A stretch of DNA of 64,000 nt from an uncultured Planctomycetia bacterium. GTDB lineage: Bacteria > Omnitrophota > Gorgyraeia > Tantalellales > Tantalellaceae. Position numbers and translations under genes: made by a program. The stretch spans positions 31,574-95,573 of the forward strand of contig CAYSJU010000001.1 of the NCBI GenBank assembly GCA_964431495.1, written 5' to 3'. The notes beneath the pieces are model-generated. The model was given only the letters and a program-made list of their open reading frames with translations. It was not told where the DNA came from and did not search any database. Positions 1 to 42,283 of the stretch are shown piece after piece. The stretch's first letter is position 1. Each line of letters opens with the position of its first letter.

Positions 1-1
1 G

Positions 2-24000: not shown

Positions 24001-26374
24001 CGTATTACAGCTTCAGATCATGACATTTGTTGATACGGTAAATGACATTAAAAATACTCTGAAAATGGATTCCGTGTTCAATCTTAATCCTGATATAGAC
24101 GTGACCTTTGGACTTGCCGCCGCATACCTTGACATGATCTCCGGTAACGGGGCAGGAGCAACCGCTGTTTTGCGTTCCATTAATCCAAGAAGTGACGAGG
24201 ACAGGGCAGAATTCGTCTTTGCCAAGATGCGTATGCAATTGGCGGCTGGTGAAACGGATAGCGCTGAATATTCCCTGAAAATAATGGGAGCATTGGATCC
24301 TGGCATGACGCCTTCCGCAAGGATGTTGATCGCTGAAAAATATCTGGAACTCGGAAAGAAGGCTCGAGGAGGTAGCAGGGAACAAAGACAATATCTCGAA
24401 AGAGCCGTGTCTTTATGGCCTAAATTCCTGGAAGCACATGTGGCTCTTGCGATCTTATACGCCAAAGTAAAAGACACGGCAGCAAGGCGGGAGGAGGACC
24501 GGTTCATCGCCCGTATAAGAACGGATATTGCTGAGGAAAGAAATTTAAGCCCCGTGCAAATGAGATGGGACAGGGGAGAAGAGGCAAGGAAGCACCTGAT
24601 AAAAGCTCCGGTTCTTGAAAGGCTGACATATTTCGGTATACCGGTAGGGGTAACGTTATTAGCGGGATTCAGGGGCATCAGCAGCATATGGGCGCTTCTC
24701 GGAATTGTCCCCATGGGGACGATATTCGGAGTATTTTTTGCGATAATGCAGATACCGTTTATTGTGAAGTTTATACAGGAACATAGGGGTGAAAGAAGAA
24801 TGGCATGGATGGTATCTCTTGGAAGCTTTGCCCTGCCGTTACTGGTGTTATTCGCTCCTTTTGATCTGGCCCCTGCGGCCCTTATCGGAATAGCAATTGG
24901 TTTTCACGCGTTTGCCAATTTAACGGTATTCACATTGAACACGATTACAAGGAGACAGATCTTCAATTACGCGACAAAAGAGGTCGGGTTGCCCGGACTG
25001 CTTCCCGAGATGCCGCTCCCGCCTCCGGTAGAAGCTGTTCCTTCCGTGGCTGTTGTAGGTGTTGTGGAAGGTGATGAAGATGAGATGGAACGGTTGAGTG
25101 GGGAATATCCTGATATTCGATTTATTTCGATAAAAGAAGGAGGCGAAGCGGGAATAAAACAAATGGAAACTGTAATGGGTCCGGTAACAAGGTTCCTTGT
25201 TGATATGACCCCCGAAGATGTGCTTGAGAATATGGACAAGATTGTTGAACAGGCCCAGAGGCAGTCTTTTGTGGACATGTATCCGTATCTGGCGGGTCTG
25301 GATGCCCGGTCCATCAGGAACCTGGACAAGACGGACCTTGAAGGGGCGATGCAGGTAGTAAGTGTGTCAATGCCGCAAGAAAGACCCATGGAAGAAGGTG
25401 TCCTGGGATCGCTTTATGCGGCTTACATCTCCGGCGTGGCGCCTGATACGGCTCTGCCCGCGGGTATTGCCCCGGGAGATCAGGAAGCCTGGGTCAGGGA
25501 GAACGTCCGGGCGCTTAAAGATTATGAAGAGACTCAAAGCATGGGATTGCCGGTTGAAGCGCCTGAAAAGAAACTGCTTGCCTTACACGCCGGATTGGAT
25601 GATTTTCTGCGGGATAGATCCAGGGATGATATAAACAGGATACTCATGCGCCATGAAGGCATCGCCATGGCTCAAGGCATGGAGGATGAAGTCGTGGGAC
25701 TCATGTCTGAATTCAGAAATGCCGGTCTCATCCCAAAAGAGGCGCCTCAGTCCATAGTGATCGATGCCAGGAAAGATTCGGGGTTTAGACTTGAATACAT
25801 GGTGCCGGCTCTCCTGGATTTTGCCGGGAAAGCCCCGCTTTTGCATATAACCGTGATAACAGAACCCGGTGTTGATCTGACCGAATTCATCCCCGGGGCA
25901 GAGATGCCGGATAACCTTTCCCAGATGGACAGGATTCTGGAAGAGGTGCCTTTGTCGGAGCAGGTCAAGGGGCACCTGGAAGATATGGGCAAGGATATAC
26001 CTTTGCCTTCGGTTTCAATAGCCACAGGTGAATTTATGACGGACAAGATCATAATCAATGTAAAAGATGCCGGGACCCAAGGCGCGAACTTTGTCATAGC
26101 CGGTGAAGAGATGCTGGCGCCTGATGACGAGGCCGCGAAAAGGATACACCGCCTTATACCCGCGATAGCGGCCATGAACCTTTTAAGGCGGGCGGCGGAT
26201 GAACGCAAGGCTCCCAGCATAGTGGCTATGGGATGCGGAGAAGATACGATAAACGATATCATGACGCGCCTCAAGGACGTTCTTCATACACTGGTCAGGA
26301 TAGCGAGACTTGATATCGGTGAGGCTGTAAGAGCGTTTATCGACAGCTTGCATGAAGTTGCGGCTGCCGTATAA
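2..26374 (+). CDS. Giant multi-domain membrane-associated protein, truncated at the 5' window edge (8,791 codons in window). Contains a SecA-like motor, TPR/helical arrays, charged spacers, TM clusters and a C-terminal alpha/beta domain.
   Basis: One reading frame with no stop from nt 2 to TAA at 26372-26374. The frame is open upstream of the first ATG (nt 32), and that ATG has no Shine-Dalgarno, so the true start probably lies before the window. Recognisable motifs are listed in the sub-features. Confidence 0.9.
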   Translation, partial: TFDEASLRADMIQEENKDADFERGGGIVTFDEDHVPAAIAEEEGLALPLSEDADLAQIENDLKRTAFQLRAGEIESDSVEDIYGCYTGRNVEAPQKSGIVNKLIEKALSLRTPGVYLIRAPPNLFFAVRVNRHGEVDLFKIDTLFSGSNDEIQGKFAGIIEEAGREAAAVRKSGEKVDAGRQQFGFEVINTLYGHDNAGSVIAVISHHITDIFKKDQDISGKELVRELADRMNGVFGIENGFRTVVTASHVREQDAESRAETTGRDFASTMLERANELLEARDVVLEGSRIEGNLIKDDTDYSAPEVEKAIRENISLEETYQMERGEEVLARADARLMKKAEGFLAAVEERISAKEPVWAYEERGGGISDRGARFTHEEINSGIRGLFDRFRRVFGVFVLEDMGLVIGNDRLGMPVYDLEGLRGLLESRTEQRKELSDVEIRLVNGRLVVIADNIYTHCGRRSGQVWIDRKDLKAKRVELKSKHGLADGESEGMALEALIRHEQGERDSLLAQARQHFLRETGRDTASDKEIVEWIEDEENVSDQKFNIWLKTAHEDAKKTEKRYVRVQLARVPGYDELKEMPVEVMGRIIVRLEKAGNIEGAGSIVDTLLELHESGELRGAWTEADISRFNSVQRRLAYQIEVMRQLKALPDLDRLEEMSINEFGALIGRLERQRDFEAAEMVAGVLLGLHDRGELRGEWVEADIRLYRNRKKRFGYRNKLELARAAVGRVITRARHEEFHEKQGYREILLEIGKEIGAPFDGERYDFRTALREAEDGRIRIERADGTITEIYETEDGILVIMDTRIDVGHAGRTQLAVYANHTGNQAQAAHELAELRGWIDFAVVQGLAAKDDILTRRVDLGGLLMGYMRDEANFYRAMDQVERLHQEGLRAEAEAQGLRYMAPAEITGALVTFESGVDYDFIIASTLGDEAELEGMGLRVQESSDELRGALTRARGLLRAVNELTEETDKLAKADELVEVARLVRDRAARALENVSEYAAFAARIAEATAGDRVSAIARVADELARNAQSYIAFDHEYVQEAEESARAGNIDSLVRAVSNLISGVTFSSGAIRVALAVTEAESAGEVAAIVLRAAANKAVDHDFTEAGRYARAAAEIAGEGYIAEKADELATVAAEAQSELVDELAGKAVGAGNIEKAAQMGNIIRFDPAIIGKMRVARAIKEEVEEEAPPKAEEEVPVEEEVEEEVPAEEEVAPEEEGKSQLESADRDIRIAVEQAKDGDAVAAEKSVKDAFEAWSSAAENFLKAATAAKERNNANAARAYTVRAAEVWAVAAEKLKEASSETWDVFHERFSGATPVTRSVIDRIGRFAYNASDYQARALGKALGFFEQIAAERAETKDAVSAVKFARRATDICVSLATQEKFAVEFIAFLVKDIDISAEMAATINEQAQSVKAAAAKAAEDAAKYWEDIDNAAEKIFFRRDAMEARAAAEKTDALVRKVADFAEKTVAAKDRKAKEEERDRTRIAVAREKADKALGEIEGLIAEAQAKADEAAIKAAAKIGAPEEAVADATAGVYSEGIAQVNTFKFLIKGSAEIAAKAATVKEAEDAAKAAAKSVELAVKFNNVAESVDDAKTLFEKVVALAQAAADFVKIAELPMVTVCAELAAEFAQATGVSVDGSENHVSGVGDLLNNIAMYARQGDAEKAERNAVAAVRRLRKAAAGKEAERAREKAPPVEGVGAEKAREEAARKEAEAEAARAKAEKATEEIEKAWEEADWKQAEAEAAWMKAEAETLREEAFRKGEEAEPARAEADRKGTEAEAAGEEADRKEEEARKAREEASRKEAESEALEEITRIFIDKTLNRANRISELSEIATRSEKVLLRRYARRALGRILDRKYTDIDFVLEIEPGTILSVYNGINRESREPGAVEDIRILDAIMESCFLEDRDSDLFINALDITERNIETVCDILSDDITYLKTEIQTLGRAPVIDLEAQTEAVNDLRKQIAAKKAVLDSMVKRQFQLREYRDLREEDRFRDFLQSLDMEALSAEGITDKAQFIDYLRVKALEQGYTQNEITSLLENHAIMGSENLVEFIATLGNLAEENSAIQYFILALSASGENYLKDLGIGNKADLITYLQEKAMERGDSGTDITTLMESYIESGSESLEELLSMLNAFPGARDTYVLRGVQTLIEGRLSDIISLETQNLESLNTRCIDLRNSIPWGEVPFAPGQDTMEFEWEGSKVLVTRKQVDEYRERIKSSGAKTVERQVTQLEVAVATISSRARNILRRTGNATFRRRIVNKAEGSVKEVLKEWHKYLEGKISERDLDILERAMDKFKLVDADRTISMFTQATNSLLADVNTISRAEGISEFTSWLLFKMNEILDPASESGVVKEISDVEKGAVRKTVQDRFNELVEELLGAEVDPSIIGRIRENTDEIKDEIDGDNRIGRLTVLTKEMTDTIKSIAYGKQGMELMEAVLRSKIGDNVTKENIGRVMTALGITGKELEMCQVHILEKEKIEDRFERFAEFILQLMFTGAVSADRLREVFGQEAADGVIKEASKGIMLGERLREKVKELEGRLQKNFQDKNTRMEFAAAYQLGAILTFGNAPFVEQIITGLDMADDFFVDMATGAGKTLAYPLANMLGRCRGLKNIHFVTHDYYTERDYRETHFLYQVMGYNVSYQRGDQRDLGEAAKRLEDNDVVIMSYGTCSFTCLDGVRDRTRPESAKWFDLLAKTRLTFDECDVAPRLADFIMAAAQNKLTVREFMRYHVLMETSKRLYDEGGIKEIYSLLEDNITRVKQGETDETEQLEKLGSMLGIEKEDVEFDSAGDLVIKSVTDGKEYTLPAVRRKAELIDVNGTKFGVKYSDRDGFVISRMEWVGHADLSEGEIKKRIEDAGKKGRRLSRRQAIEELSKEATERSGVKIDLTSRTANAGEETRSRVEGIMKEMSFSLSEMFPELAEKTPTWDEFLDTVKAMYVDDEGVDYILKYRPKLGAQPIKVLEEEGVLKMTQEDKIIKEPEFKVEVQHNGSYKVVYKGIFIALLNDEFFKGKGDDEMVLAMGDKRYAVAKGDTGGYVFTESGMEVVLLDRETGREQGGQRKDRFHTLYELKHQKRPGDRPEARGDNKSTEYLSFTDVARFAHSYGGASGSVSTAADVMLKIFEKAKGVKKLTPQFAKKGAEKMPVFVTSNKAQWKVTLNRLKEIYTASPGASVIVYFDDIKQAREFEEELGKMIKETGLEKDAGGEIKVNVFGEEGIKEVELVEKAGKPNTITLADSKLGRATNVELSEKVGFVVRNSAEALEEFLTGKKRGETGRDTLTIEEKGEISNTVARLVELLAGMEYIEEEDRWDEGLFFKTDVAERAKKREEIENFLRDLGAGPGSMVWQTIKHKYFDGLFLVDLSPDGSLQGMVQKFGRNRRQGDIGFVDSFYSLQEGSKFFRLVEEAYNPSHNLHRTERERKEGLVKFNEFLDRKNRIGELEEHVFDENGHYLEGIDEGIFMEWCELQQYFMAFMRDVRVEHQKRADEQRVRKNESDKKTQKYLDLVRDLPVDIYEKMDKNPEEARRIVEDRLTAIQDEHFTLDKVDDDGWLDLEEFLGVVEEHFHINLEDKARFSQARLKERNVKELLFLREQFRRALMDVILSVGSVTGRAGEPVALNTGNIFYTFMLDPTTGDLEVNSVQQLLPDGNRQEILEKRDDGTIKIGEAVFTSGFMEDGSFALFDISGRPVNRFFIEPYVDRTGAEAGFRITQAGAFVSAIKALYVEGLDRLKMKLIREARYKGGEVTETDISETGLAAAAIEVSRERYIDKRDKTAEYDSPEAQPIIRDATETIHGSLDKLGKRLAEQDKAVDELAVENLEKEKQWDSIKLARSVRRSTRKADEEVASRVRDAGVITVQEEAQEARLDETAAITAQSIYSVSRTNELVAALEGITGVEIREGEVKRRDERDRKDMQMEYTREQEERIEAALEYQERISSQHRQKLERGEGSVIGDRVFVTVDKPEGQTISDAEVEQCFSVGAAPSGAGGAEAPPEPGIIMVASARELQGLSDEDKRQLANELDNRFGKAGETIAVAFNSLSEGEFDEDEETARFSFSGLRVFDRASMSSLRAERESLRDSTEKEKHVLTQEKLEKKLELSPEDKDEKVFIKKVGTSNFMVIVADDGTTYVRDLGKDVLPQTKREVVRANAVLSGKDRESRKAGLRADEYIVNESGVFVRMEGVPGAPGSDKPPVPLFDVLVDINLTGKEEIGERLPLTKETGRPEMRGVWSQTRRRGRGVGNAIKGVFVRFGRRALTAKEWIDYRVDLVYRSHGFFRSLLPAVPKVIISRFIIGIPKFMFKDTRRRFGLWRERRKAAYKRKASRLEQKWRRGELFHRLDYRLNKIKKDPSAGKIKKGFASVGSWILRASFKKTYYWIRTGAGNAFLAISIVFVLRVAFWELPKGILKLIFVLPVRKFRGWLKKRKEMKEPELESEDVIRSRLPQIVQEGTITEERAVEEAQKLTGAELQVPETHSVRVRRIAELLQYLSQEGLDRSDPEYEAACREIGQILFDMAEDAEKIGTDLWKERARELRLNAFNYMSIAAALDKKDMTATALLGIILHSMGDDGKAKKLLEKAVKKGVPQDANMTMACVVLGKMLEDEADKSKDREDYKKAARVYQKARMSDVTLLGEDISITEAKARCLENAKKKAKEEEKKPSAGQQMKKMLGESFKLNKLMGSKRQRIIAGVLAGTVVIIAIFAPGLLLAVASTLGGVKLPVLSWGLAQIASPLLILAEAGGIVAKLFALSKVAFSFTMIIRLSTGAGRRVYGIFTNPLAIRRMVRTERQAMKRAPGQAEPRIGLIKVYESMDKTSKAARQVNRTSKKIRKGKMSPEESAKFIEFLFERSKKEKEEKEEEEEMGFPGFPGTPGLGAVRRKPKAEEMKKEEASKEEKQREKERETAEYLFRAVYASAETPEDRAKAYLLRGRLALRSEPPEVVRMRDGPEDFVDIAVYSADQIVDRVDELESKSAATAEESQELEKLRPFVTDALLLRMEALQKRYEKNRTEENGREFLNVLEQLRVLADQMDTEQLERFQTAGIDHKPDEKTSARSYAKSAEEATSIEEAPAIEKKEPAVEEKLFTGDQADRAQREMLEDKLKREKTLLSGERLDLAELYMKEGLYSRAIRQLKKIPRGDDKAALVARMIVLGCLKMKEDPRWFQRLGLIRRFWTFRRAINRLRALGGENTEWADWIASTLYKVRPAGAEEAFEAIAASYMAEPANNDEKVNNELIESGLKAIVGSKRRKVEASRAVENMLAHGSIPDERGPFTELASDNTRKLKETVKKTSKKKLRALVRDLYSIRRKRLERLAAIERKLTPGTDPYEKNRAKRDRLRKEKEKIDRELGPIELDILNRTALLVGANKESPGAVSEISEHGELKYFIRALAGGHEHVSDLMKKLDHIEEGVGKDFLHVLLVDAWLEDRFGQAYDNDKNKPSGVVADRDQLMMHFSVLLSIYGQSENKVLRDIIRSALENISGYDIYGTWDGRKFGRSPVVSDAIESLGEVQEEGIKGLVAEMNEKQGAKNLNEGRSLESKAKEEKDALKRSGLTNKAKRQLGSAMVHLENSMEYYRERLEERGIDRDQRKKALEPIRGLIEAWYGRDAANAVIKVMEEAISEEEDEDELIKRMEPVLDKITFVGTDKDLVKKLLPGLSLKDLITLMNNCGNILSYDEKMTQILARGAGYDMEEWDMAIDAVKDLLGNIDVDDLVKARLDVDIRMNAVQVPVPGDDPEILSEWIILIAGLIKKKKETGLDTTNEMETYEVLKEKLITVLKKRRDREETDEINGALREAGSLISAAEAYEALGEYGKAEEALGKARDMINDLFERNMQLQYEGEELLPEEVMEKCKDKATELAGKLKGVYYRQGKYFDAMMTVARGQKLLAEYTFTVDGVEKEADAQRYINKARETLNNADRLNPYQPDVKLEMMEVDMLRLTIARREVEEAQKKEDEEKEKKEELEKKIEELTEKQEKLEEDLAIVRNRAQAEVVLLAAKGITGDENASQNKRQKKLDEIKRPLTEVLKDIESSKEELVDVEAELTDLEERRGSQEGQERDTIAVQSTDIASAVNRAFECIVDGKYDTDNDNVKKAVEFLSSLSPFEELPHEAQDAIVSNIALLQRYERALEISDKAEGVKRRAFITRLLLDLHFKGDHDMLMGKAKVEFMGNKPSGTLIALEQIDGGYEGLGEKIEVTEFLDYISEKMPEEGRGELINTLYGLLETVDGTQDPVLRAGITRNIYNLIDLETDQDLTSEENFTEEGTFKDEKREIIIKKSLTELLKEKEINEAIAGTEGFLEDLLSIFETLKKDEKDWKQMGWQDQIEFLMDFFVEKEQPEDLVEKMEQANRMKLYDVMERTEDVERRKAAIEQILRQEVDVLPESRNNDFIKGKAYELMSLDKESALAGYFLGVAAYQSGRRTKEGEAKRQEGYSRADAIERLKKYLEKNKDDEQALLFLADIYEARHDEMFAENRNKEGYDPEASRHFDELSGHFINKYDEKIKEKDEPAAAEALSEALKYIDLAIICDPRNSGFRIKQAGIFKKMGEDEAAAREAETIIEVSVEKPLFAPIVTVEDKKEANTLLADIRISEGDLRGVQDMLEGRMNRVTRMGKTALAAAVILAAAGFPLGGLVLGSIAVLAAIISHITLIRIPAGIAARLALIHMRLGDRGRTGRYMRRMRRRIEKQGEKVDADTLGILADELQTWAGAPERPDKDRYVVYGEIVDLREMRKESPAVSEDEENKRIAGLKMEQARMERPLGLRRREKRRQDHLENRKGLLNAAKEADPDLSDEADQMLMAINNKEIERLERQQRRFQRVRNRRFVRRFFHDVAENIIPLYLDNAGLLVELFEKESDPASLSDLRGQAYDALTFAREIAERDRKDLPEEHGKLMARIFVSLGDENRGRREYDTALSDYDLAIEQDDNNAKAHLGIALALKEQGADPELIAEHLDKALELEPSLDEPGAENFEGLVELYNSLGKHDMAEAAAERIEARFLKAKKEELGKKAKQARKKSEAPQLEDVVQTGVEIERLRKEIEEKEEIVAALPDGDKGEPYYTYAENDLELDKAELKAREEDLGNNMTRFKELVNKGEVFNAVIGNMRGQPLDEAMEQLSVFHDLLKKQNLLSAKNISDPVDLALAERYEQKGDLEKAEEHLKPVLEAVPSTLGHVKANLVIKAYLLHAKVLVRTDKETRFEDAVDSLSRAAGWISGLNENFKDRRLVSDAFDSFKDVLRSLEEAGLSFDVYMKYRDNLFDIFEQLSVLGEDADAARLAADAALKNITDRSRGFIGNALFDKRIKDVLKAPFLQAILDAIPRDRTVLNKLQGLQEHLEMVLDSRDNDLRVRANLIMGLLTGRGRKARNLIKEAVTADESLKNTALVVRGLARTYILYFPRNIALRSRARKMEKQTAGEFVRRGNNDFDKEKHHGAIRNYEKAIDLDSSLKENKDIKEKLSKAYEEDKGTLMSRFRRLFWRKEKKLLLGTDLLRKALEFATDEDRKPAVRNSLISNLTALSTLMTTRFVNMRSAEQRKKWQDFQARMSDINTEIGKLHADNMILHQEKKHSAEAEASFNNAKGALTMAVKFNPENMEARNGLERLGEEVPAEETAEQLIRKARDKVKEGEFEEALSLLDEAVEKDKDKESEVKDDKGNIEEVNKITDAILDYFMRKAYIAEYAGLSDTNDPDGSKRKGIQNRFMRELSGNFQNRQETGSNIFEEWFRLSDREDVTRGSELRQFADMSIRGAGEEKPAIKPGIRDMFFHRGLIMAERLVGERNTAKALHLLALLRGIRTSKKAQLLAATCNIMRLGDQEKKPLRDLISEAEQEFISVVVSTPEDKAEKSRLALEVGRLFSGRASSLWRDNQKTDRSQARQEAEEYYKAALKLDPSNSEALQGLVNFYGRERVEELFSDDTRPFVIEAIIRSEDMAALGGLFNTTFQGKDGMLDEGRVEVARALFARIDELKDTEGQEIIRLMKAALPVMRGLKLQDPVLQLQIMTFVDTVNDIKNTLKMDSVFNLNPDIDVTFGLAAAYLDMISGNGAGATAVLRSINPRSDEDRAEFVFAKMRMQLAAGETDSAEYSLKIMGALDPGMTPSARMLIAEKYLELGKKARGGSREQRQYLERAVSLWPKFLEAHVALAILYAKVKDTAARREEDRFIARIRTDIAEERNLSPVQMRWDRGEEARKHLIKAPVLERLTYFGIPVGVTLLAGFRGISSIWALLGIVPMGTIFGVFFAIMQIPFIVKFIQEHRGERRMAWMVSLGSFALPLLVLFAPFDLAPAALIGIAIGFHAFANLTVFTLNTITRRQIFNYATKEVGLPGLLPEMPLPPPVEAVPSVAVVGVVEGDEDEMERLSGEYPDIRFISIKEGGEAGIKQMETVMGPVTRFLVDMTPEDVLENMDKIVEQAQRQSFVDMYPYLAGLDARSIRNLDKTDLEGAMQVVSVSMPQERPMEEGVLGSLYAAYISGVAPDTALPAGIAPGDQEAWVRENVRALKDYEETQSMGLPVEAPEKKLLALHAGLDDFLRDRSRDDINRILMRHEGIAMAQGMEDEVVGLMSEFRNAGLIPKEAPQSIVIDARKDSGFRLEYMVPALLDFAGKAPLLHITVITEPGVDLTEFIPGAEMPDNLSQMDRILEEVPLSEQVKGHLEDMGKDIPLPSVSIATGEFMTDKIIINVKDAGTQGANFVIAGEEMLAPDDEAAKRIHRLIPAIAAMNLLRRAADERKAPSIVAMGCGEDTINDIMTRLKDVLHTLVRIARLDIGEAVRAFIDSLHEVAAAV
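7684..10560 (+). other. SecA-like ATPase motor region (NBD1 - PPXD-like insert - NBD2 - helical scaffold) inside the giant ORF
   Basis: Motifs appear in SecA order. They are: FVEQIITGLDMADDFFVDMATGAGKT (Walker A, nt ~7750-7815); VTHDYYTERDY; SYGTCSFTCLDGVRD; LTFDECD (DExD box, nt ~8129-8143); VVLLDRETGREQGGQRKDRFHTLYELKH (nt ~9163-9250); SFTDVARFAHSYGGASGS; TLADSKLGRATNVEL (nt ~9731-9775); GRNRRQGDIGFVDSFYSLQE (nt ~10156-10220). Confidence 0.8.
12848..13270 (+). other. Hydrophobic/basic cluster 1 of the giant protein (putative membrane-inserting or amphipathic segments within an Arg/Lys-rich stretch)
   Basis: FFRSLLPAVPKVIISRFIIGIPKFMF and AFLAISIVFVLRVAFWELPKGILKLIFVLPV sit inside a very basic region (RRRGRG..., RRRFGLWRERRKAAYKRK, KKRKEMK) spanning nt ~12720-13320. 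Confidence 0.55.
14084..14330 (+). other. TM cluster 2 of the giant protein (about 3 hydrophobic helices)
   Basis: IIAGVLAGTVVIIAIFAPGLLLAVASTLGGVKLPVLSWGLAQIASPLLILAEAGGIVAKLFALSKVAFSFTMIIRL. Confidence 0.7.
19859..20020 (+). other. TM cluster 3 of the giant protein (about 2 hydrophobic helices)
   Basis: MGKTALAAAVILAAAGFPLGGLVLGSIAVLAAIISHITLIRIPAGIAARLALIH, followed by an Arg-rich stretch (RLGDRGRTGRYMRRMRRRIEK). Confidence 0.7.
24623..24945 (+). other. TM cluster 4 of the giant protein (about 4 hydrophobic helices)
   Basis: LTYFGIPVGVTLLAGFRGISSIWALLGIVPMGTIFGVFFAIMQIPFIVKFIQEHRGERRMAWMVSLGSFALPLLVLFAPFDLAPAALIGIAIGFHAFANLTVFTL. Confidence 0.7.
25027..26371 (+). other. C-terminal alpha/beta domain(s) of the giant protein. 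It ends in a motif shared with the 1,932-aa and 988-aa proteins.
   Basis: Short hydrophobic strands alternate with helices (VAVVGVVEG, IRFISIKE, LLHITVITE, KIIINVKD, FVIAGEE, SIVAMGCGE). The terminal sequence LKDVLHTLVRIARLDIGEAVRAFIDSLHEVAAAV aligns with the C-termini of the CDSs ending at 42283 and 45499. Confidence 0.6.
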
Positions 26375-26486: not shown

Positions 26487-26558
26487 AGATCCCGCGTTCC
26501 CAGGGCAAGTTTACATTTATCAATAACTGTGATATAGTTGTGCCCGGGGATACAGCAT

Positions 26559-27374
26559 ATGAAGTTATTATTTATTAAGATAATAGTGATAGCTGCTTTT
26601 TCTGCTTCATCCTGTGCTTTTGCTCAGGAAGATGTCCTGGACGAACTCAATGCGAAAGCAGTGAAGCTCTACAAGGAGGGGAAATATGAAGATGCGATCG
26701 TCACGGCTAAAAATGCCATGGAGATCACAAAAGAGAGATACGGGCCGGAGAGCCCTGATGTATCGGCATCCTTGAATAATCTTGCGATTATTTACCAGGC
26801 TGCCGGCAGGTTTGATAAGGCCGAGGACCTTTTGAAACAGGCCCTGTCAATAGATGAGAAGATATTCGGTAAAAAGGACGTCACTATAACCAGGGTCCTT
26901 GATAACATGGTCGTCTCATATTATATGCAGGATAAATACGGCGAGGCAGAGCGTTTCTGTGAAAGGTCTCTGAAATTGAAAGAAAAATTTCTTGGAAAGG
27001 ACGCTTTGCCGTGCTCAGCATCTCTTTATATGCTGTCGAATCTTTACTTGCTGCAGAAGAAATATGAAAAAGCGGCCCGGGCATATGAACGCTTGCTGGG
27101 CATATTGGAAAAAGAGCTCGGCCCGGAGCATTCTAATATCGGACAGATCCTGTATGAATATGGAGGGGTGCGTAAGGCTCAGGAGAGATATCCGGAAGCG
27201 CTTACTTTTTATGGCCGCGCCGTTAAAATAATCGAAAAGGCGAATGGCATGGACCACCCATCTTTAGCTGTCGTCCTCGATGACATGGCAGAGGCTCATA
27301 AAAGAACAGGTGATGAGGAATCGGCAAAAAAGGCCGAAGAGCGCGCCGAACAGATCCGTCTCAAAGATCAGTAA
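26559..27374 (+). CDS. Secreted tetratricopeptide-repeat protein (kinesin-light-chain-like TPR_10/12 type)
   Basis: Signal peptide MKLLFIKIIVIAAFSASSCAFAQ. About 42-aa repeats of the form YG.E.PDVA.SLNNLA.IY...G.Y..AE.L...AL.I.EK..G. The ATG at 26559 is preferred over the TTG at 26538. Confidence 0.8.
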   Translation: MKLLFIKIIVIAAFSASSCAFAQEDVLDELNAKAVKLYKEGKYEDAIVTAKNAMEITKERYGPESPDVSASLNNLAIIYQAAGRFDKAEDLLKQALSIDEKIFGKKDVTITRVLDNMVVSYYMQDKYGEAERFCERSLKLKEKFLGKDALPCSASLYMLSNLYLLQKKYEKAARAYERLLGILEKELGPEHSNIGQILYEYGGVRKAQERYPEALTFYGRAVKIIEKANGMDHPSLAVVLDDMAEAHKRTGDEESAKKAEERAEQIRLKDQ

Positions 27375-36484: not shown

Positions 36485-39400
36485 ATGTTCAATTTGTATT
36501 TAAACAGGCATTACATGATAAAAAAGGCCACCTGTATCGGGGTCATCACGGCTTTTTTCGTGAGTTTTATCTATGTGAATGCCAGACCAGCAGTGGGAAT
36601 AGAAAGAATTCCGTTTGAAGTTCCGGGAAAAGAAGTGGGATTATTTGCCCAGTTCAAACCTGATACCTTTACTGTCCCGGCTCACCTGGGGGAAATAAAA
36701 TACAAGTATGAAAGCGCATCCGACAGGTTCATCATCCATATCCAGGACGCCCACTGTAATTATTTCGCGCAGCGCAAGATCTACGATATTATCGACTACC
36801 TTAACCGCGAATATGGTATCAGCATGATAAACCTTGAAGGCGGAGTTGGAGATTACGACCTCACCCCGCTCACTTCGATCACTAACCGGGCTGTCCGCAG
36901 GGAAGTATCCGAATATTTCGCGAAAAAGGGAGAGATAAACGGAGCCGAGCTATACGCTGGAAACAATCCAGGAAAGGTGACGTTGTGGGGCGTTGAAGAT
37001 AAAGACCTGTATCTCGCGAATCTGAACGTGTACAGGGATTTTTTATCCTACAAGGCCGCGGCGGAAAAATATCTTAATGAGCTCACCCGCATCATGGAGA
37101 ACCTGAAGAGGCATATATACACTCCTGACCTGTTGAGAATAGACAGGGCGTATAATGAGTATAAAGCGGAAAAGATGGATTTCCGTGATTATCTCGAGTT
37201 CCTGGTCGACAGGGGCAAAAAAAACAATATACAGATCTCCAGTTTTCAGAACCTGGAGATGCTCCTGCGGGCGATGGGCCAGGAGAAGGACGTGGATTTC
37301 AAGGAAGCCAACATGGAGAGAAACGAACTGGTGGAAATGCTCAAGAAAAGGCTTTCGAAGCAGGAGATAAGCGAACTGGTGATCATGTCCCTGGATTTCA
37401 AAAACAGAAAGATATCACACAAGGAATTTTACGGGTATCTCTTGAAAAAGGGCCGGGAACTAAAAATTAATGTTAAACGTTTTCCAGCACTTTCCACTTA
37501 TATTGAATATGTATCCAGTTATGAGGCCGTGGACCGTTCCGATGTCATGAAAGAGATGGACGAGCTAGAGGCACAGATAAAGGAACGGTTGTACAGGAAC
37601 GACACGGAGAGGCGCCTTAATACGCTTTCACGCAACCTGGCTATCCTGAAGAATATCTTCGCGTTTTCGCTTAACAAGAACGATTACAGATATTATCTGG
37701 AGAATAAGGACTCTTTTGAAATAGCGAATTATCTTGAATTCATCCGAAGGGAGTCCCCCCGCTACAAGATAACCGCCGCGCTGAGCCCGGACATTACAAA
37801 CATGGATGATTACAGGGGGAGGATAATGGGTTTCTATGATTATTCTTTCAAGAGGGACGAGGTATTCATTGAGAATGTGCGGTTTGACGCCTTGAACGGT
37901 GGATCCAGAGGGGCTGTTCTTATAACGGGCGGCTTTCACACCGAGAACCTGCGGGAGTTATGCGAAAAAGAGGACATACAGTACGTGTCGATACTGCCTT
38001 TGTTTATAAACAAGAAGGGATACCAGAGCCCGTATTTTGATCTTCTCGCCGGGGAGAGTACGGGCATGGAGGAAATGTTAAGGACGATCATGGCCCAGGT
38101 CTCAATGCTGCAGGTGGCCAGCAATCTTAACGAGCTCGGCGGGGACGCGTTCGGCAGGTCCAATATAGAATCTTTCCGCGCGGCCGTCGCGATCCGGACC
38201 CTTGTCCAGCAGGGATACCGGGTCACTGTTACGGATGCCGAGGGCGGGGTTCTGTTTACCGAAGGGAAAGGCGCACCCATAACAATTAGCATCTGGGAGG
38301 TCATTGACCGGGCACATGAGCTCCATATTGACAGGCCGATAACTGAAGCATTTGAACGGGGCGATGTGAAGACACTGGAAGAGGAAGGTCTGGGAGCAAC
38401 CAGAGGCATGGCCAGAACATTTCTGGAAGATACAGCCGCCGCTTTGAGAAATCGAGGTTACGCGGAACAAGCGGCGAAGTTGACGGATGCTGCGAACGCC
38501 CTGGCTGATGTGCGGATCAACCTCTTGACCAATGTTGAAGGTTTTGTGGCCCACGCTGGAGGAATGGGGATGCATATCAATAAGTCGGCTGTAACGGATG
38601 AAGCGGGTGAAACAGACATGGAACGACTGGCGGGGCACATTATCCATGAAGCAGTCGCGGCTTTTGCGCGCGATCATGGCGTAAGCACTGTGATGGAGGA
38701 AATGTATCTCGGTATAAGCGATGTGACCGACAGCAGCCTTGCTGAAATATTAAGGGAAGAATGGCATCCGGCAGTGTGGGATATAGAAGCGCGCGGTGAT
38801 AGATTGGCAGGGGGCAGGGATTTTGCGTTCAGGGAAGTAGATTTAAGGGATCTGGGCGGGGAATATTCAGAATTGGAAAAGGGATTCTTGCGGGGCTTGT
38901 TGCAGATATTAGGGCCCCATGAGTTCGGGAAATTCACCAGGCGTGGAGAAAACATGAGTTTGGTTTCTTATGATATACCTATGATGGAGCTGGGCTTGCG
39001 TGGACTTTCTGACCGCCAGAGAAGAGCACTAAGGAACAGAGGGTTCGGAGATGGCACCACGGAAATAAAGATTTTGGGTTATTTGAAAAGATTAGCCCCC
39101 GATCAAAGAAGCGGTGCCAGAATACGTTATGAGAGGAAGTTGTTCCCTGTCACCATATCCGAAGGTGATGATGTTCAGACACGCTGGGAAGAAGCCACCA
39201 GCCACGTATGGATTAATAAAGATGCCTGGGACCAAAAAGTAGCTTTACTTAAAGAAAATGGACTCCGGAGCGAAGCGGAGGCAATAGTCAGGGACGCGAC
39301 TTTGGCGTTTGCGCTGGAGAACCGTGAACCAGACGCGGAAGCCGAAGAGATGTATCTGTACAGGGAGGTTACGGAAGAATTCGCAGGAGTAGCAAGGAAG

Positions 39401-42283
39401 GCTCTTGAGACCATAGGAAGAAGTGCCGAGGAGATAATCGGACTTACCGAGGGAGACTCGCCTGATATGAAGAGATTTTCGGACACGATTTGGCGCGCCG
39501 TTGACTCGTTAGACCTGGATTACAATGAATATAAAGATAATGAGTTGGGTATGACAATAAGCCAACGGTGCGCCGGCGTTGCTAACTTTATCGCCGGGGT
39601 TTTGGGGACCGAGAATGTTTTGATGACGGAGCTTAACGAACGGCTCGATGAATTAAAACAAAGTGATAACAAAGCTTTCAGGTTTTTCGCCGAAAAGGCT
39701 TCCGCGGCGCTTTCTGCATTAAGTGAACAGGCCGGAATGTTCAGCGCTGACGCAAGAAGTGGGACTTACGATATTCCAGGTACTGCCGGGAGGACATTAA
39801 GTGCAGGAAAAGCCGTCATCGATGGGAGGTCCGGAATAAGGCCATGGAACGCGGTGATGGAAAGTATTAGAGATTTTTCCGATAAAAGTAAGGAGTTAAG
39901 ACCGAATTGGGATACTGGCGCAACAGAGATAATGGGCAGAATAGCAGGAGATAACGCGGAAGGGGTGAACATCATCAATCGGGCGCTTGACAGATTGACG
40001 GAAACAGAGGTCAGAAGAATAATCGAAAATGCGAAAAGTATCGAATTCTATGGTAAGGATGAAAAAGGGGACGGTAGACCACAATATTGGATCAGAGGCA
40101 TAGGCACATCATATTTAATAAAGATTTATGAGGCCGGGAAGGAAGAAGATGAGAGAGCCTTCAACGCTTATGAAGCCGGGCTCGGGAGGTTGAAAGATAT
40201 AGCGCCCACTGTTCTCTTGCGGGGACTCAGGTTTAACGGGAAGAGTGTCAATGCGGTAGTAAGGCCTGCGGACCCGAGGAAAGTTGTCGCGCTCGAAGTG
40301 GATGATGTTTTGGAGGCAATGTCAGGGAGTATCGAGGAACTGGAAGCCAAAGCGCAAAGGAATGTTAATGAGTATTCGGACAGTATCGGTAAACTGAGCA
40401 GAGAGATCGAAAAGATCGAAAATGATATCGGAGGTTTAGAAAGTCAACTGGAAGGAGAGACAAAGGAGAGGAAAAGGAACAAACTTACGGATAGGATAAA
40501 TAAGCTGACGGATAAGCTGGCGCCGGTAAGAAAAGAGAGAGATGATAAGCAGAGAATAATGGACACGACCAGAAATCTGTTGAATGCAAGAAGAGCAAAG
40601 ATGTCGGCGATCGAAAGCCGGGTAAAGCAATTGCGGCAGAGAATGCTTGATCAGGGATTTGATTTTCCGGGCGTTGATGAGGCTGAATTCAGGTCGAGAT
40701 GCGGGTTTCAAGTGGCCGATACAACAGGTCACATATATGCGGGACTTGTTCTTTTTGATATAAGAGGCATAACCCTGGCAGAGGGAGCCGATGAAGGAAT
40801 GGAGGGGGTGATCGATCCCGGAATGGTTAATGGGGCATTTCCAGGTGCCGAAGGTGTGCCCGAAGTTATTTACAGGGCCTTGATCAGGGAAGCCTTAAGC
40901 GATAAAGGAGCTGGAGCAGAAAAAATTTTAAGGACAATGCAAATTATTAGCAATGGTGAATCGCTCGCTAACGCGGACAGCATAATGGAAACGATAGGGG
41001 AGGTAGATGCTGGGCTCGTTGAAAGAGTAGGCAATATTGTTTCCAGAATAAATAGTGAAAAAGCTGTTACGGCAAAGATACCGGGGACCGATGTTGGTGT
41101 TGGCGCTGAAAGAATGCAGGAGATCGCCAGGGAGATAAGGGGGAAGCCAGAGGCAGGGGTCAACAGGTACGGGGAAAGCAGTGACATGGTCGGCAGGGCC
41201 AATGATCTATTGCAGAACATGGCCGGGATGGACGAGGCGGCAGGCGGGCTACCGGATGACACCAGGATCGGCAATGTTGAGGTCGTTGCCTATGACCTTG
41301 CTGAATATGGACTTGCCGATGAGCTCGAGGCCACGAGCTATTTTAATGATGCCGGCATATTGGTCATTGTTGTGAACAGTAATGCCGGGAAGAGCAATGA
41401 TTATTTTGCCGGTACGCAAGCCCTTGAACACCTGGTGCGCCACGAGTTTATGGAAGCAGAACCCGCCATTTCCATGGAACACCGTGATATAAAGCGGCTT
41501 GAAATGATAGAGAACGGGATGAACGCGCTTACTGTGCTTAATCTGGTGGCTTTAAGACACATGACGCTTGAGCAGCTGGGCAATATAGCGGAATCGCATG
41601 AGCTTGATCCCGGGGGCTTGTTCTACTCGGCTGCCGCGACAGAGATCGAGGCCAGACATGCCAGGGGGATATTGGAAAACGCCAGGCCTTCGCCCTGCGC
41701 TATTCTTATGCCTCTTACTGAAGACCAGAAGATCACGGATGGTTCCGCTTTCAGGAAAGTCGCGAGTGACGCTGAGAGAAGACTTGATAAAAAATACGGC
41801 ACGAATATCGGGATATACTATTACGACCCGCTTGTTCCACATGACGATAAGACCTCCTTGAGCAATATGAGTGAAAAGGCCATGGAGGACAGGGATTTTC
41901 GTGAAGATGAGGGATCGCGGTTGCTCGCGTATGTTCCACAGTTCATGTCGAGAGAAGATATCGAATCATTTAAGACCGGTATGAAAGGGAAAAAGTTCGC
42001 GGGTGTTGTGCAGGAAAATATAGCCGAAGGCGAGACTTATGACGAGGTCCTTCATGTGGTATTAGGCATAGGCCTTATAGATTATTCAAAGTCTGCCAGT
42101 CTTGAAATGGCAGGCATGGTGAAGAACCTGTTGAGCGCAATGGTAGAAGACGCGAGCAGCCTTGAAGGCATGGACCTTAAAAGACTCCTTGAGGGTATCG
42201 TGCTACTCAGGTTAAAGAAGATGGATTACGGTGAGATCAGGGACTGGAAGGATGCTCAGGACGAGGTATTGAGAGCATTGTAA
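36485..42283 (+). CDS. Large (1,932 aa) N-terminally membrane-anchored protein of unknown function, with a coiled-coil segment and the shared C-terminal motif
   Basis: GGAG lies 7 nt upstream of the ATG at 36485. N-terminal TM segment ATCIGVITAFFVSFIYV. Coiled coil at nt ~40330-40650. The C-terminus LKRLLEGIVLLRLKKMDYGEIRDWKDAQDEVLRAL matches the giant protein's terminus. Confidence 0.85.
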   Translation: MFNLYLNRHYMIKKATCIGVITAFFVSFIYVNARPAVGIERIPFEVPGKEVGLFAQFKPDTFTVPAHLGEIKYKYESASDRFIIHIQDAHCNYFAQRKIYDIIDYLNREYGISMINLEGGVGDYDLTPLTSITNRAVRREVSEYFAKKGEINGAELYAGNNPGKVTLWGVEDKDLYLANLNVYRDFLSYKAAAEKYLNELTRIMENLKRHIYTPDLLRIDRAYNEYKAEKMDFRDYLEFLVDRGKKNNIQISSFQNLEMLLRAMGQEKDVDFKEANMERNELVEMLKKRLSKQEISELVIMSLDFKNRKISHKEFYGYLLKKGRELKINVKRFPALSTYIEYVSSYEAVDRSDVMKEMDELEAQIKERLYRNDTERRLNTLSRNLAILKNIFAFSLNKNDYRYYLENKDSFEIANYLEFIRRESPRYKITAALSPDITNMDDYRGRIMGFYDYSFKRDEVFIENVRFDALNGGSRGAVLITGGFHTENLRELCEKEDIQYVSILPLFINKKGYQSPYFDLLAGESTGMEEMLRTIMAQVSMLQVASNLNELGGDAFGRSNIESFRAAVAIRTLVQQGYRVTVTDAEGGVLFTEGKGAPITISIWEVIDRAHELHIDRPITEAFERGDVKTLEEEGLGATRGMARTFLEDTAAALRNRGYAEQAAKLTDAANALADVRINLLTNVEGFVAHAGGMGMHINKSAVTDEAGETDMERLAGHIIHEAVAAFARDHGVSTVMEEMYLGISDVTDSSLAEILREEWHPAVWDIEARGDRLAGGRDFAFREVDLRDLGGEYSELEKGFLRGLLQILGPHEFGKFTRRGENMSLVSYDIPMMELGLRGLSDRQRRALRNRGFGDGTTEIKILGYLKRLAPDQRSGARIRYERKLFPVTISEGDDVQTRWEEATSHVWINKDAWDQKVALLKENGLRSEAEAIVRDATLAFALENREPDAEAEEMYLYREVTEEFAGVARKALETIGRSAEEIIGLTEGDSPDMKRFSDTIWRAVDSLDLDYNEYKDNELGMTISQRCAGVANFIAGVLGTENVLMTELNERLDELKQSDNKAFRFFAEKASAALSALSEQAGMFSADARSGTYDIPGTAGRTLSAGKAVIDGRSGIRPWNAVMESIRDFSDKSKELRPNWDTGATEIMGRIAGDNAEGVNIINRALDRLTETEVRRIIENAKSIEFYGKDEKGDGRPQYWIRGIGTSYLIKIYEAGKEEDERAFNAYEAGLGRLKDIAPTVLLRGLRFNGKSVNAVVRPADPRKVVALEVDDVLEAMSGSIEELEAKAQRNVNEYSDSIGKLSREIEKIENDIGGLESQLEGETKERKRNKLTDRINKLTDKLAPVRKERDDKQRIMDTTRNLLNARRAKMSAIESRVKQLRQRMLDQGFDFPGVDEAEFRSRCGFQVADTTGHIYAGLVLFDIRGITLAEGADEGMEGVIDPGMVNGAFPGAEGVPEVIYRALIREALSDKGAGAEKILRTMQIISNGESLANADSIMETIGEVDAGLVERVGNIVSRINSEKAVTAKIPGTDVGVGAERMQEIAREIRGKPEAGVNRYGESSDMVGRANDLLQNMAGMDEAAGGLPDDTRIGNVEVVAYDLAEYGLADELEATSYFNDAGILVIVVNSNAGKSNDYFAGTQALEHLVRHEFMEAEPAISMEHRDIKRLEMIENGMNALTVLNLVALRHMTLEQLGNIAESHELDPGGLFYSAAATEIEARHARGILENARPSPCAILMPLTEDQKITDGSAFRKVASDAERRLDKKYGTNIGIYYYDPLVPHDDKTSLSNMSEKAMEDRDFREDEGSRLLAYVPQFMSREDIESFKTGMKGKKFAGVVQENIAEGETYDEVLHVVLGIGLIDYSKSASLEMAGMVKNLLSAMVEDASSLEGMDLKRLLEGIVLLRLKKMDYGEIRDWKDAQDEVLRAL

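What the first reader, a model, noticed from the sequence alone, without database searches (positions are those of the whole stretch)
25027..26374. Same C-terminal domain and terminal motif on three large proteins in this window
The giant protein, the 1,932-aa protein (C-terminal domain ~41690-42280) and the 988-aa protein (~44978-45496) end almost identically:
- giant: LKDVLHTLVRIARLDIGEAVRAFIDSLHEVAAAV
- 1,932-aa: LKRLLEGIVLLRLKKMDYGEIRDWKDAQDEVLRAL
- 988-aa: PKQLASIIIFNLKPIEVQDFDELKRLNENLLKILRAA

The shared pattern is a hydrophobic strand, then [LMI][DE][IYV]-(G/Q)-[ED], then an aromatic or hydrophobic residue, then a short helix ending in A plus a hydrophobic residue at the very C-terminus.

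Upstream, all three show the same strand/helix alternation. The giant has EYPDIRFISIKE, the 988-aa protein has DFPDLREKIEVVTD, and the 1,932-aa protein has KKYGTNIGIYYYD. All three proteins also carry N-terminal or internal membrane-targeting sequences. A conserved extreme C-terminus on otherwise unrelated large proteins suggests a common sorting/secretion tag, a docking module, or a shared enzymatic cap. I do not recognise this domain.
Basis: seen in the sequence. Interest (0 to 1): 0.75.

Follow-up and report, generated by a model that had tools for sequence, protein, structure and literature searches.

The report
Shared C-terminal cap on Omnitrophota megaproteins
Three otherwise unrelated large proteins of an uncultured Omnitrophota bacterium each end in an uncatalogued alpha/beta domain whose last strand and helix run exactly to the C-terminus, which gives a first shared handle on how this phylum's giant proteins might be assembled or sorted.

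Summary
Ordinary comparisons of the three C-terminal regions are not significant: BLASTP gives E of 0.076 or worse, and a profile of the p988 domain does not find the other two.

Each region is nevertheless a real, conserved module at the extreme C-terminus.
- **Giant protein:** its last ~450 aa belong to a family of 58 cluster representatives on proteins up to 7,715 aa, of which 57 run to the C-terminus. The members that carry a source name are all labelled Candidatus Omnitrophota.
- **p988:** its last 190 aa recur at the end of Omnitrophota proteins of 370 to 3,525 aa.
- **p1948:** its tail is identical over the last 19 residues in its only relative.

End-anchored tail profiles built without any window sequence link the three.
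- They link p1948 to the giant family and p1948 to the p988 family (p about 0.0003 to 0.001).
- A third family from other genomes (U) links both the giant and p988 (p about 0.001).
- The direct giant–p988 comparison is not significant.
- No other ORF tail in the window scores comparably.

AlphaFold models show alpha/beta folds ending in a strand plus an 18-residue helix. Nothing matches in Pfam, NCBIfam or the PDB.

Sister proteins carry ATP- and PEP-dependent enzymes, which argues against a secretion tag. I favour a docking or assembly module, but the function is inferred.
The parts
25022..26371 (+). C-terminal module of the giant protein (family G, ~450 aa). Subdomain A is about 25028-25732 and subdomain B about 25733-26371.
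   Evidence: A family profile built without the window hits giant residues 8341-8790 at E 1e-149. A search of 1.84 billion representatives found 58 hits, of which 57 run to the last residues of the protein. AlphaFold model: pLDDT 79.6, pTM 0.65.
26282..26371 (+). Giant tail: last strand (LVRI), turn (ARLD) and terminal helix IGEAVRAFIDSLHEVAAA, then V and the C-terminus.
   Evidence: The model has strand 422-425 and helix 430-447. The family tail consensus is ..ITRLNIGEEIRxFIxSLxxxAxS[LV]. The family U tail profile scores it 10.3 bits, p=0.0013.
24692..24931 (+). Three hydrophobic helices directly upstream of the giant's C-terminal module.
   Evidence: Kyte-Doolittle scan, peaks at residues 8231, 8267 and 8292 of the 8,790-residue open frame. 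In 13 of 36 family members a hydrophobic helix lies within 200 aa upstream of the module.
7610..8080 (+). SecA_DEAD-like domain of the giant protein (context: it marks this as an Omnitrophota-type giant protein).
   Evidence: Pfam PF07517, E 5.1e-13. West-Roberts et al. report such domains in most Omnitrophota giant proteins.
41549..42280 (+). Conserved C-terminal region of p1948 (family Q). It has only one relative, P0012.
   Evidence: 63% BLASTP identity to P0012 over 230 aa (65% in the 244-aa alignment), E 7e-81. No Pfam, NCBIfam or PDB match.
42191..42280 (+). p1948 tail: ..IVLLRLKKMDYGEIRDWKDAQDEVLRAL, ending at the C-terminus.
   Evidence: The last 19 residues are identical in P0012, which is the longest identical run in that alignment. 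Anchored profiles score it 14.0 bits for F (p 3e-4), 10.5 bits for G (p 1.3e-3) and 17.7 bits for the combined F+U+V profile.
44927..45496 (+). C-terminal domain of p988 (family F, 190 aa, five strands alternating with helices).
   Evidence: 10 protein relatives and 6 genome loci, always at the extreme C-terminus of proteins of about 370, 660, at least 1,531 and 3,525 aa. AlphaFold model: pLDDT 82.8, pTM 0.80.
45407..45496 (+). p988 tail: ..IIIFNLKPIEVQDFDELKRLNENLLKILRAA, ending at the C-terminus.
   Evidence: The model has strand 191-193 and helix 201-217 of the 218-aa query. The family U tail profile scores it 11.4 bits, p=0.001.
42653..42982 (+). N-terminal domain of p988, which always accompanies the family F C-terminal domain (a 'bookend' pair).
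   Evidence: p988 residues 41-150 match the N-termini of the ~379-aa proteins, the 3,525-aa L002 protein and the 660-aa L007 protein, at E 1e-10 to 1e-22.
43136..44617 (+). Cargo of p988 between the two bookends: an HD domain (43136-43501) and an MNIO / MbnB-like (DUF692) domain (44114-44617).
   Evidence: Pfam PF01966 at E 2.5e-6 and PF05114 at E 1.2e-8. NCBIfam MNIO models score below their cut-offs.
36515..36571 (+). N-terminal hydrophobic segment of p1948. The probable start is the ATG at 36485, giving 1,932 aa.
   Evidence: Kyte-Doolittle scan. Public gene calls give 1,932 aa.
42545..42601 (+). N-terminal hydrophobic segment of p988 (within MRKRSLIKLLSVILVTVFSITTF).
   Evidence: Kyte-Doolittle scan.

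Best explanation
**What it is.** The window comes from an uncultured Omnitrophota bacterium. The giant protein (at least 8,780 aa), p1948 and p988 each end in a member of an uncatalogued, apparently phylum-restricted set of C-terminal 'cap' modules. I group the relatives into five families: G (giant), Q (p1948), F (p988), and U and V (from other genomes).

**What the modules share.**
- They are alpha/beta domains.
- The final beta-strand, a short acidic turn and a 17-18-residue amphipathic helix run exactly to the C-terminus.
- They carry a soft common motif: a hydrophobic strand, then D-x-[G/D]-[E/Q]-[L/I/V]-[R/K]-x-hydrophobic/aromatic, ending in [S/A]-[A/L/V] as the last two residues.

**Most likely function (inferred, not shown).** The cap is a protein-protein docking or assembly module. 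It would bring several co-encoded, membrane-tethered megaproteins into one assembly at the cell membrane. These megaproteins include SecA-like/TPR giants and fusions of central-carbon enzymes. The invariant terminal strand-helix unit would be the shared interface. The cargo-less ~379-aa protein (hydrophobic anchor + N-domain + C-domain) would be a possible hub.

**Confidence split.**
- About 0.7 that the shared tail is real and reflects common ancestry or a common partner.
- About 0.35-0.4 that the function is docking or assembly.
For: **Shown**
- Family G has 58 representatives at E<=1e-3, on proteins of 65 to 7,715 aa. The module ends at the last residue in 32 of 36 full-length cases.
- The last residue is always L, V or A.
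- Named members are all Candidatus Omnitrophota.
- Family F is always C-terminal, on proteins of about 370 to 3,525 aa.
- Families G and U are homologous: hhalign probability 92%, E 5.6e-7, extending over 326 columns. The reciprocal HMM hits agree.
- U and V tails align at probability 84%, E 7e-6. V aligns to F over 72 columns to the end, P 0.0034. V aligns to the G tail at P 0.029.
- Anchored tail profiles built without window sequences pick out exactly the three window proteins among about 160 window ORF tails.
- Both AlphaFold models end in a strand plus a terminal helix.
- Cap-bearing genes are clustered:
  - U, then the 379-aa protein, then V, then a p1948-like gene, in several MAGs.
  - A giant followed by a p1948-like gene in L001.
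  - A p1948-like gene followed by a p988-like gene in L020.
- The cargo includes ATP- and PEP-dependent enzymes: PFK, PPDK_N, PEP-utilizers, PGI and PGM.
- A cargo-less form exists.

**Inferred**
- That the clustering, the shared terminal unit and the cargo-less member mean docking or assembly.
Against: - No standard search links the three window domains. BLASTP gives E of 0.076 or worse, hmmsearch finds nothing, and hhalign probabilities are 8% or less.
- The direct giant-p988 tail comparison is not significant (p 0.07-0.23).
- The anchored test's null set is internal sequence windows plus a few hundred ORF tails. It is not a large set of real protein C-termini that end in a strand-helix unit, so the p-values may be optimistic.
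- The two models differ in size and in number of strands, and I could not superpose them.
- p1948's region has only one relative and no model.
- No partner, interface or oligomer has been observed.
- Conserved charged residues in family F (K45, H49, R61, R79, E80, D107, E139, R146) would also fit a ligand-binding or catalytic site.
Confidence: 0.5

Rival explanations
1. **Sorting or secretion signal.** The cap would be recognised by an envelope machine, for example the type II / type IV-pilus-like systems reported next to Omnitrophota giant genes. That machine would export the proteins or attach them to the surface, as the T9SS C-terminal domain does in Bacteroidota.
For: - The cap is strictly C-terminal and the protein end is invariant.
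- p1948, p988 and the 379-aa proteins begin with a positively charged N-terminus and one hydrophobic helix, which looks like a signal peptide or an N-in anchor.
- With seven predicted helices after the SecA-like domain, the giant's cap could lie outside the cytoplasm (crude).
- The literature places many giant-protein domains outside the cell and finds secretion genes nearby.
Against: - Proteins with the same caps carry PFK, PPDK_N, PEP-utilizers, PGI and PGM. These enzymes need cytoplasmic ATP, PEP and sugar phosphates.
- A cargo-less protein carries the cap.
- No secretion-system gene lies in this 64-kb window or in the loci examined.
- The fold is alpha/beta, unlike known sorting domains.
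- The last 30 aa contain no membrane helix or basic cluster.
Confidence: 0.15
2. **Ligand-binding regulatory or catalytic domain.** The caps would be Rossmann- or flavodoxin-like units, for example sensing a nucleotide or metabolite. They would be fused to many enzymes to co-regulate them. The terminal helix would simply be the last helix of the fold.
For: - The models show alternating strands and helices.
- Many invariant charged or polar residues sit at strand ends in family F, and D246 and R248 are invariant in family G.
- The weak Foldseek neighbours are flavodoxin-like, phosphoribosyltransferase and sugar-isomerase folds and receiver regions of histidine kinases.
- The cargo is enzymatic.
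Against: - No Foldseek hit is significant: best E 0.02 with TM 0.27 for family F, and TM of 0.26 or less for family G.
- There is no Pfam, NCBIfam or PDB profile hit and no recognisable nucleotide-binding motif.
- It does not explain why the polypeptide always stops at the same position.
- It does not explain why a cargo-less anchor-plus-cap protein is conserved in the operon.
Confidence: 0.2
3. **No common origin for the three window caps.** Three unrelated C-terminal domains would each happen to end in a strand plus amphipathic helix, and the tail resemblance would be generic or convergent.
For: - All conventional pairwise and profile comparisons among the three are non-significant or marginal.
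- The strict motif is poorly conserved within families.
- The modules differ greatly in size.
- The direct giant-p988 tail test is non-significant.
Against: - Profiles from non-window sequences rank the three window tails above all 160 other window ORF tails.
- In 6 of 10 family pairs the best hhalign alignment is tail-to-tail.
- Family U is homologous to G in its first part and resembles F and V in its tail.
- All families share the same phylum, the same gene clusters and the same strict end position.
Confidence: 0.15

Closest known systems
T9SS C-terminal domain (Por secretion tail) of Bacteroidota
   Same: - It is one conserved module at the extreme C-terminus of many large, otherwise unrelated proteins.
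- It is restricted to one phylum.
- Many copies occur per genome.
   Different: - The T9SS domain is a beta-sandwich of about 70-100 aa that is recognised and cleaved during export (established knowledge).
- Here the modules are alpha/beta domains of 190-450 aa.
- The Pfam and NCBIfam scans returned no hit to the caps.
- The cargo includes cytoplasmic enzymes.
Dockerin modules of cellulosomal enzymes, and C-terminal docking domains of PKS/NRPS megasynthases
   Same: - They are terminal modules shared by diverse large enzymes encoded in clusters.
- Their role is to assemble those enzymes into one complex. This is the functional analogy I favour.
   Different: - Dockerins are calcium-binding duplicated loop-helix motifs of about 70 aa. 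PKS/NRPS docking elements are short helices (established knowledge).
- There is no sequence match and the predicted fold is different.
- No scaffold partner has been identified here.
Omnitrophota giant proteins (West-Roberts et al. 2023 preprint; 2026 complete-genome preprint)
   Same: - The window's giant carries a divergent SecA_DEAD domain, TPR repeats and several membrane helices, as those papers describe.
- Sister proteins carry the sugar-metabolism domains listed in the 2026 catalogue.
   Different: - Term searches of the two papers for C-terminal, terminus, anchor and related words found no mention of a conserved C-terminal module or a shared terminal motif.
- The caps also occur on much smaller proteins (about 370-2,000 aa).
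Flavodoxin-like / CheY-like receiver fold
   Same: - Family F has five strands alternating with helices.
- Its weak Foldseek neighbours include flavodoxin-like domains and receiver regions of histidine kinases.
   Different: - No hit is significant (E of 0.02 or worse, TM of 0.33 or less).
- The Pfam scans returned no hit at all.
- Four helices lie between strands 4 and 5.

Membership tests
T9SS C-terminal sorting domain | Match to the curated C-terminal-domain models in Pfam or NCBIfam | tested here: not met
   Scans of the three C-terminal regions and of their relatives returned no such hit.
T9SS C-terminal sorting domain | Beta-sandwich fold of about 70-100 aa | tested here: not met
   The AlphaFold models are alpha/beta domains of 190 and about 450 aa.
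T9SS C-terminal sorting domain | Host genome encodes T9SS machinery | not tested
   Only 64 kb of the genome was available. No secretion genes lie in it.
PEP-CTERM / LPXTG / GlyGly-CTERM type sorting signals | Short motif followed by a membrane helix and a basic cluster at the extreme C-terminus | tested here: not met
   The tails are amphipathic and acidic and contain no hydrophobic helix. NCBIfam gave no hit.
Dockerin | Duplicated calcium-binding loop-helix motif; Pfam dockerin model | tested here: not met
   No Pfam hit. The predicted fold is alpha/beta.
CheY-like receiver / flavodoxin-like domains | Significant sequence or structure match, with conserved phospho-acceptor Asp geometry | tested here: inconclusive
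   The topology of five strands alternating with helices is compatible. Foldseek gives a best E of 0.02 with TM of 0.33 or less, and Pfam gives no hit.
Omnitrophota giant proteins (West-Roberts 2023) | Divergent SecA_DEAD domain within a very long ORF that has membrane helices, in Omnitrophota | tested here: met
   SecA_DEAD at E 5e-13. Seven hydrophobic helices. Named relatives are Candidatus Omnitrophota.
Omnitrophota giant proteins (West-Roberts 2023) | Length above 30,000 aa (the paper's 'giant' class) | tested here: inconclusive
   The ORF is open at the left edge of the window. 8,790 codons are visible, so the full length is unknown.
Family G cap (defined here) | Profile match over about 440 aa that ends at the last residue | tested here: met
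   The giant matches at E 1e-149 to a profile built without it, over residues 8341-8790 of 8790.
Family F cap (defined here) | Profile match over about 190 aa that ends at the last residue | tested here: met
   p988 matches at E 6e-90 (a profile that includes p988) and at E 2e-45 to a profile built without it. The giant and p1948 do not match.

The most novel reading that the evidence does not exclude
The caps would form a phylum-specific 'closure and docking' system for megaproteins.
- **Receptor or clasp:** the invariant free C-terminus and its strand-helix unit would be read by a dedicated receptor or by the protein's own N-terminal domain. The family F N-domain and C-domain always co-occur, with 0, about 650 or about 3,200 aa between them.
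- **Completion check:** only fully translated chains would be certified.
- **Assembly:** certified chains would be recruited into a membrane-tethered array of glycolytic and gluconeogenic fusion enzymes and SecA-like giants.
- **Quality control:** the non-polar end (..YLAA, ..LRAA, ..AVSL) could double as a hidden degradation signal, exposed when the cap fails to fold.
Probability: 0.15. Interest if true: 0.85.

Novelty: new variant of a known kind. Interest (0 to 1): 0.6.

Why it matters
Omnitrophota encode some of the longest proteins known, and their assembly, location and function are open questions.

A conserved module that caps SecA-like giants, fused central-carbon enzymes and smaller partners in the same gene clusters gives a concrete entry point.
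- **Bait:** it can be used to find partners.
- **Marker:** it can be used to list all members of the system in a genome, including ones far below 'giant' size.
- **Testable element:** the last ~20 residues can be truncated or mutated.

It also adds at least two uncatalogued domain families (G and F) to the protein universe. Finally, it shows that the sugar-metabolism megaproteins and the SecA-like giants of this phylum share a terminal element.

Tried and rejected
**Comparisons among the three window regions that led nowhere**
- Pairwise BLASTP, both on the last 300 aa and on the full proteins: nothing significant.
- hmmsearch with family F, G, U, Q and combined F+U+V profiles against all window and locus ORFs: no cross-family hit except G-U.
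- hhalign of the family F N-domain or the whole 379-aa protein against G and U: not significant. An earlier BLAST hint (E 9e-5) was therefore not pursued.

**Searches for known relatives that found nothing**
- Foldseek of both models against the PDB, and of the family F model against viral structures: only generic alpha/beta neighbours, TM of 0.39 or less.
- PDB sequence profiles.
- Pfam and NCBIfam on all members.

**Searches for more relatives that found nothing**
- Two metagenome scans for more p1948-type and U-type relatives.
- I could not reach the C-termini of the p1948-like genes in L001, L005/L014, L015 or L008, because they lie beyond the locus limits.

**Ideas rejected**
- A strict regular expression for the motif, because it is poorly conserved.
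- A P-loop reading of 'ESGKT' in family F, because the Thr and the first Gly are not conserved.

Full report
**Layout of the window**

The window holds three proteins relevant to the finding.
- **Giant protein.** Its ORF is open at the left edge and ends at 26374 (8,780 aa from the first ATG, 8,790 codons visible).
- **p1948.** It spans 36437-42283. Public gene calls start at the ATG at 36485, giving 1,932 aa.
- **p988.** It spans 42533-45499.

Between the giant and p1948 lie two TPR proteins, an IS200-like transposase, glycogen phosphorylase, a UvrD-like helicase, a HAD hydrolase and Era. Downstream of p988 are housekeeping genes. The giant carries a SecA_DEAD-like domain and TPR repeats. Relatives that carry a name are all Candidatus Omnitrophota MAGs. 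The same DNA occurs on a 116-kb ENA contig and a JGI contig.

**Checking the observation with standard tools**

The quoted peptides are present as written. Standard comparisons do not support 'almost identical' ends.
- BLASTP of the last 300 aa gives E of 0.076, 0.26 and 0.56. The full proteins share nothing else.
- A profile of the p988 domain finds neither other protein, even at E<100.
- The first profile-profile comparisons gave E of 0.03 or worse.

**Each region is a real C-terminal module**

*Giant (family G).*
- A word-indexed search of the giant's last 448 aa found one relative, P0001 (44% identity). It is the end of another giant ORF.
- An exhaustive HMMER search of 1.84 billion representatives with these two sequences found 58 proteins at E<=1e-3, 30 of them at E<=1e-30. 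Their lengths range from 65 to 7,715 aa.
- In 32 of 36 full-length cases the module ends at the very last residue. All but one short fragment share the tail ..ITRLNIGEEIRxFIxSLxxxAxS[L/V].
- Some hits cover only the first or second half of the module, so it has two subdomains.

*p988 (family F).*
- The last 218 aa found ten relatives and six loci in species-representative genomes.
- The 190-aa domain is always at the extreme C-terminus, on proteins of about 370-388, 660, at least 1,531 and 3,525 aa.
- p988's N-terminal ~110-aa domain accompanies the C-terminal domain in the 379-aa proteins (nothing in between), in p988 (HD + MNIO-like domains in between) and in the 3,525-aa L002 protein (about 3,200 aa in between).

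*p1948 (family Q).*
- The last 230 aa have a single relative, P0012 (63% BLASTP identity, 65% in the alignment). The last 19 residues are identical.
- In that genome a p988 orthologue follows immediately (85% identity), so the gene pair is conserved.

**More cap families in the neighbours**

In several MAGs the 379-aa gene sits between two large genes, and a p1948-like gene follows.
- The upstream proteins form family U. They carry HEAT repeats and PEP-utilizers_C. In one MAG the gene call covers 6,978 aa and adds deaminase, S8 peptidase, radical-SAM and WbqC domains.
- The downstream proteins form family V. They carry phosphoglucomutase domains.
- Both families end like the window proteins, for example ..WFVLPKATRIDPDELKEKLARYREALIRA and ..FYVLPKISAMDPGQLRKLYENVRKIYLAA.
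- In L001 the giant is directly followed by a p1948-like gene.

**Are the caps related?**

*Profile-profile comparisons with the enlarged families.*

| Pair | Result |
|---|---|
| G vs U | probability 92%, E 5.6e-7; extends over 326 columns with a looser alignment setting |
| U vs V (tails) | probability 84%, E 7e-6 |
| V vs F | 72 columns running to the end, P 0.0034 |
| V vs G (tails) | P 0.029 |
| G vs p1948 (tails) | P 0.004 |
| F vs p1948 | P 0.33 |

The G-U link also has reciprocal HMM hits. In six of ten family pairs the best local alignment is tail-to-tail.

*End-anchored test.* HMMER and hhalign cannot use the fact that all these motifs sit at a fixed distance from the C-terminus. I therefore built position-specific matrices of the last 30 residues from non-window members only, and aligned them end-anchored with affine gaps.
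- Against 6,000 internal windows from the same proteins, the scores were:
  - F to p1948: 14.0 bits (p 3e-4)
  - G to p1948: 10.5 bits (p 1.3e-3)
  - U to giant: 10.3 bits (p 1.3e-3)
  - U to p988: 11.4 bits (p 1e-3)
  - F to giant: p 0.23
  - G to p988: p 0.067
- The ungapped version gave F to p1948, P0012, U and V all above every one of 21,174 null windows.
- Among 160 other window ORF tails the best score is 5.6-6.6.
- Among 536 ORF tails of the window and loci, every score above 10 belongs to these families. The best unrelated tail reaches 7.0. A combined F+U+V matrix that contains no Q sequence gives p1948 17.7 bits.
- Shuffling the query tails gives p=0.0007-0.002, so composition alone does not explain the signal.

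*Caveats.*
- The null sets are not large collections of real C-termini that end in a strand-helix unit.
- The motif is soft, because a strict pattern holds in only a minority of members.
- The last residue is A, L or V in 58/58 G and 13/14 F members, and the one before it is usually S or A.

**Structure**

- **p988 cap (11-sequence alignment).** pLDDT 82.8, pTM 0.80. Five strands alternate with helices. Four helices lie between strands 4 and 5, and a 17-residue terminal helix follows.
- **Giant cap (20-sequence alignment).** pLDDT 79.6, pTM 0.65. It starts with a three-strand alpha/beta unit and a helical bundle (residues 1-235). An alpha/beta subdomain follows, ending in strand 422-425 and helix 430-447.
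- **No informative structural or sequence neighbour.** Foldseek against the PDB and viral models gives only generic neighbours: best E 0.02 with TM 0.27 for F, and E 5e-4 to a designed protein with TM 0.17-0.26 for G. PDB sequence profiles, Pfam and NCBIfam give nothing.
- **Not in the literature I could search.** Term searches of two preprints on Omnitrophota giant proteins found SecA-like domains, membrane helices and neighbouring secretion genes, but no mention of a conserved C-terminal module.

**What it does**

These points are shown.
- The caps are strictly terminal.
- They occur on many different proteins that are encoded next to each other.
- One conserved operon member is cap plus anchor with no cargo.

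The cargo of sister proteins includes the following enzyme domains.
- Phosphofructokinase (L006).
- Pyruvate phosphate dikinase N-domain, PEP-utilizers, phosphoglucose isomerase and CofD (L002).
- Phosphoglucomutase (family V).
- PEP-utilizers_C (family U).

From established biochemistry, these enzymes use ATP, PEP and sugar phosphates and should therefore be cytoplasmic. That argues against a secretion tag. I infer that the cap is a docking or assembly module that gathers membrane-tethered megaproteins into one complex.

The alternatives are:
- a ligand-binding or catalytic alpha/beta domain;
- a sorting signal;
- no common origin at all.

One conflict remains open. The N-termini of p988, p1948 and the 379-aa proteins look like signal peptides or N-in anchors. 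That would put the body of the protein outside the cytoplasm.

**Verdict**

- There are three distinct, uncatalogued, Omnitrophota-restricted C-terminal modules.
- Two of them belong to sizeable families.
- A soft but specific terminal strand-helix motif joins them.
- The intermediate family U is homologous to G in its first part and resembles F and V in its tail.
- The function is unknown, and docking or assembly is my best inference.

Noticed in passing
window 42653-42982 and 44927-45496; L002 2-10576; L003 1342-2487: The family F N-terminal and C-terminal domains always occur together, with 0, about 650 or about 3,200 aa between them (a 'bookend' pair). Family G member P0036 likewise has its first subdomain at residues 3583-3934 and its second at 5317-5488. 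This suggests that the two ends may contact each other.
   Followed up: partly
L002 2-10576; L006 84-4595; L014 6294-12644; L009 1-9446: Omnitrophota proteins with these caps are fusions of central-carbon enzymes (PPDK_N + PEP-utilizers + PGI + CofD; PFK; PGM). In one MAG the gene call covers 6,978 aa and carries deaminase, S8 peptidase, radical-SAM and WbqC domains, but in L009 its ORF stops before the cap, which sits on a separate 163-aa ORF.
   Followed up: partly
window 28260-28931; L006 4755-5432: An IS200-like Y1 transposase gene lies shortly after a cap-bearing gene, both in the window and in L006. In L001 the giant is directly followed by a p1948-like gene, whereas in the window about 10 kb of unrelated genes separate them. 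This hints at a rearrangement.
   Followed up: no
window 26538-28085: Two TPR-repeat proteins (278 and 233 aa) are encoded immediately after the giant gene. TPR domains commonly bind free C-terminal peptides (own knowledge), so they are candidate readers of the tail. This was not tested.
   Followed up: no
window 25250-25396 (giant cap residues ~75-123): The most conserved sequence motif of family G (QAxRQSFxxxYPYLAGLD) overlaps the stretch with the lowest AlphaFold confidence (pLDDT 40-55). This is typical of a segment that orders only on binding a partner.
   Followed up: no
window 36437-38100; L001 12484-15618; L005 12808-16257: The N-terminal ~500 aa of p1948 form another conserved, unannotated region. 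It is shared with large genes in the same clusters of two other MAGs (27-31% identity, E 1e-61 to 1e-77) and has no Pfam, NCBIfam or PDB match.
   Followed up: partly
window 45407-45496, 42191-42280, 26282-26371: The tails end in non-polar residues (..LRAA, ..LRAL, ..AAAV; in other families ..YLAA, ..AVSL). They resemble the C-terminal degradation signals read by ClpX or tail-specific proteases (own knowledge). This was not tested.
   Followed up: no
L001 1-12157: In the related MAG the giant gene is called as two overlapping ORFs (1-10037 and 10001-12157), so its cap sits on a separate 718-aa call. This is probably a frameshift or an assembly error rather than a free-standing cap protein.
   Followed up: no
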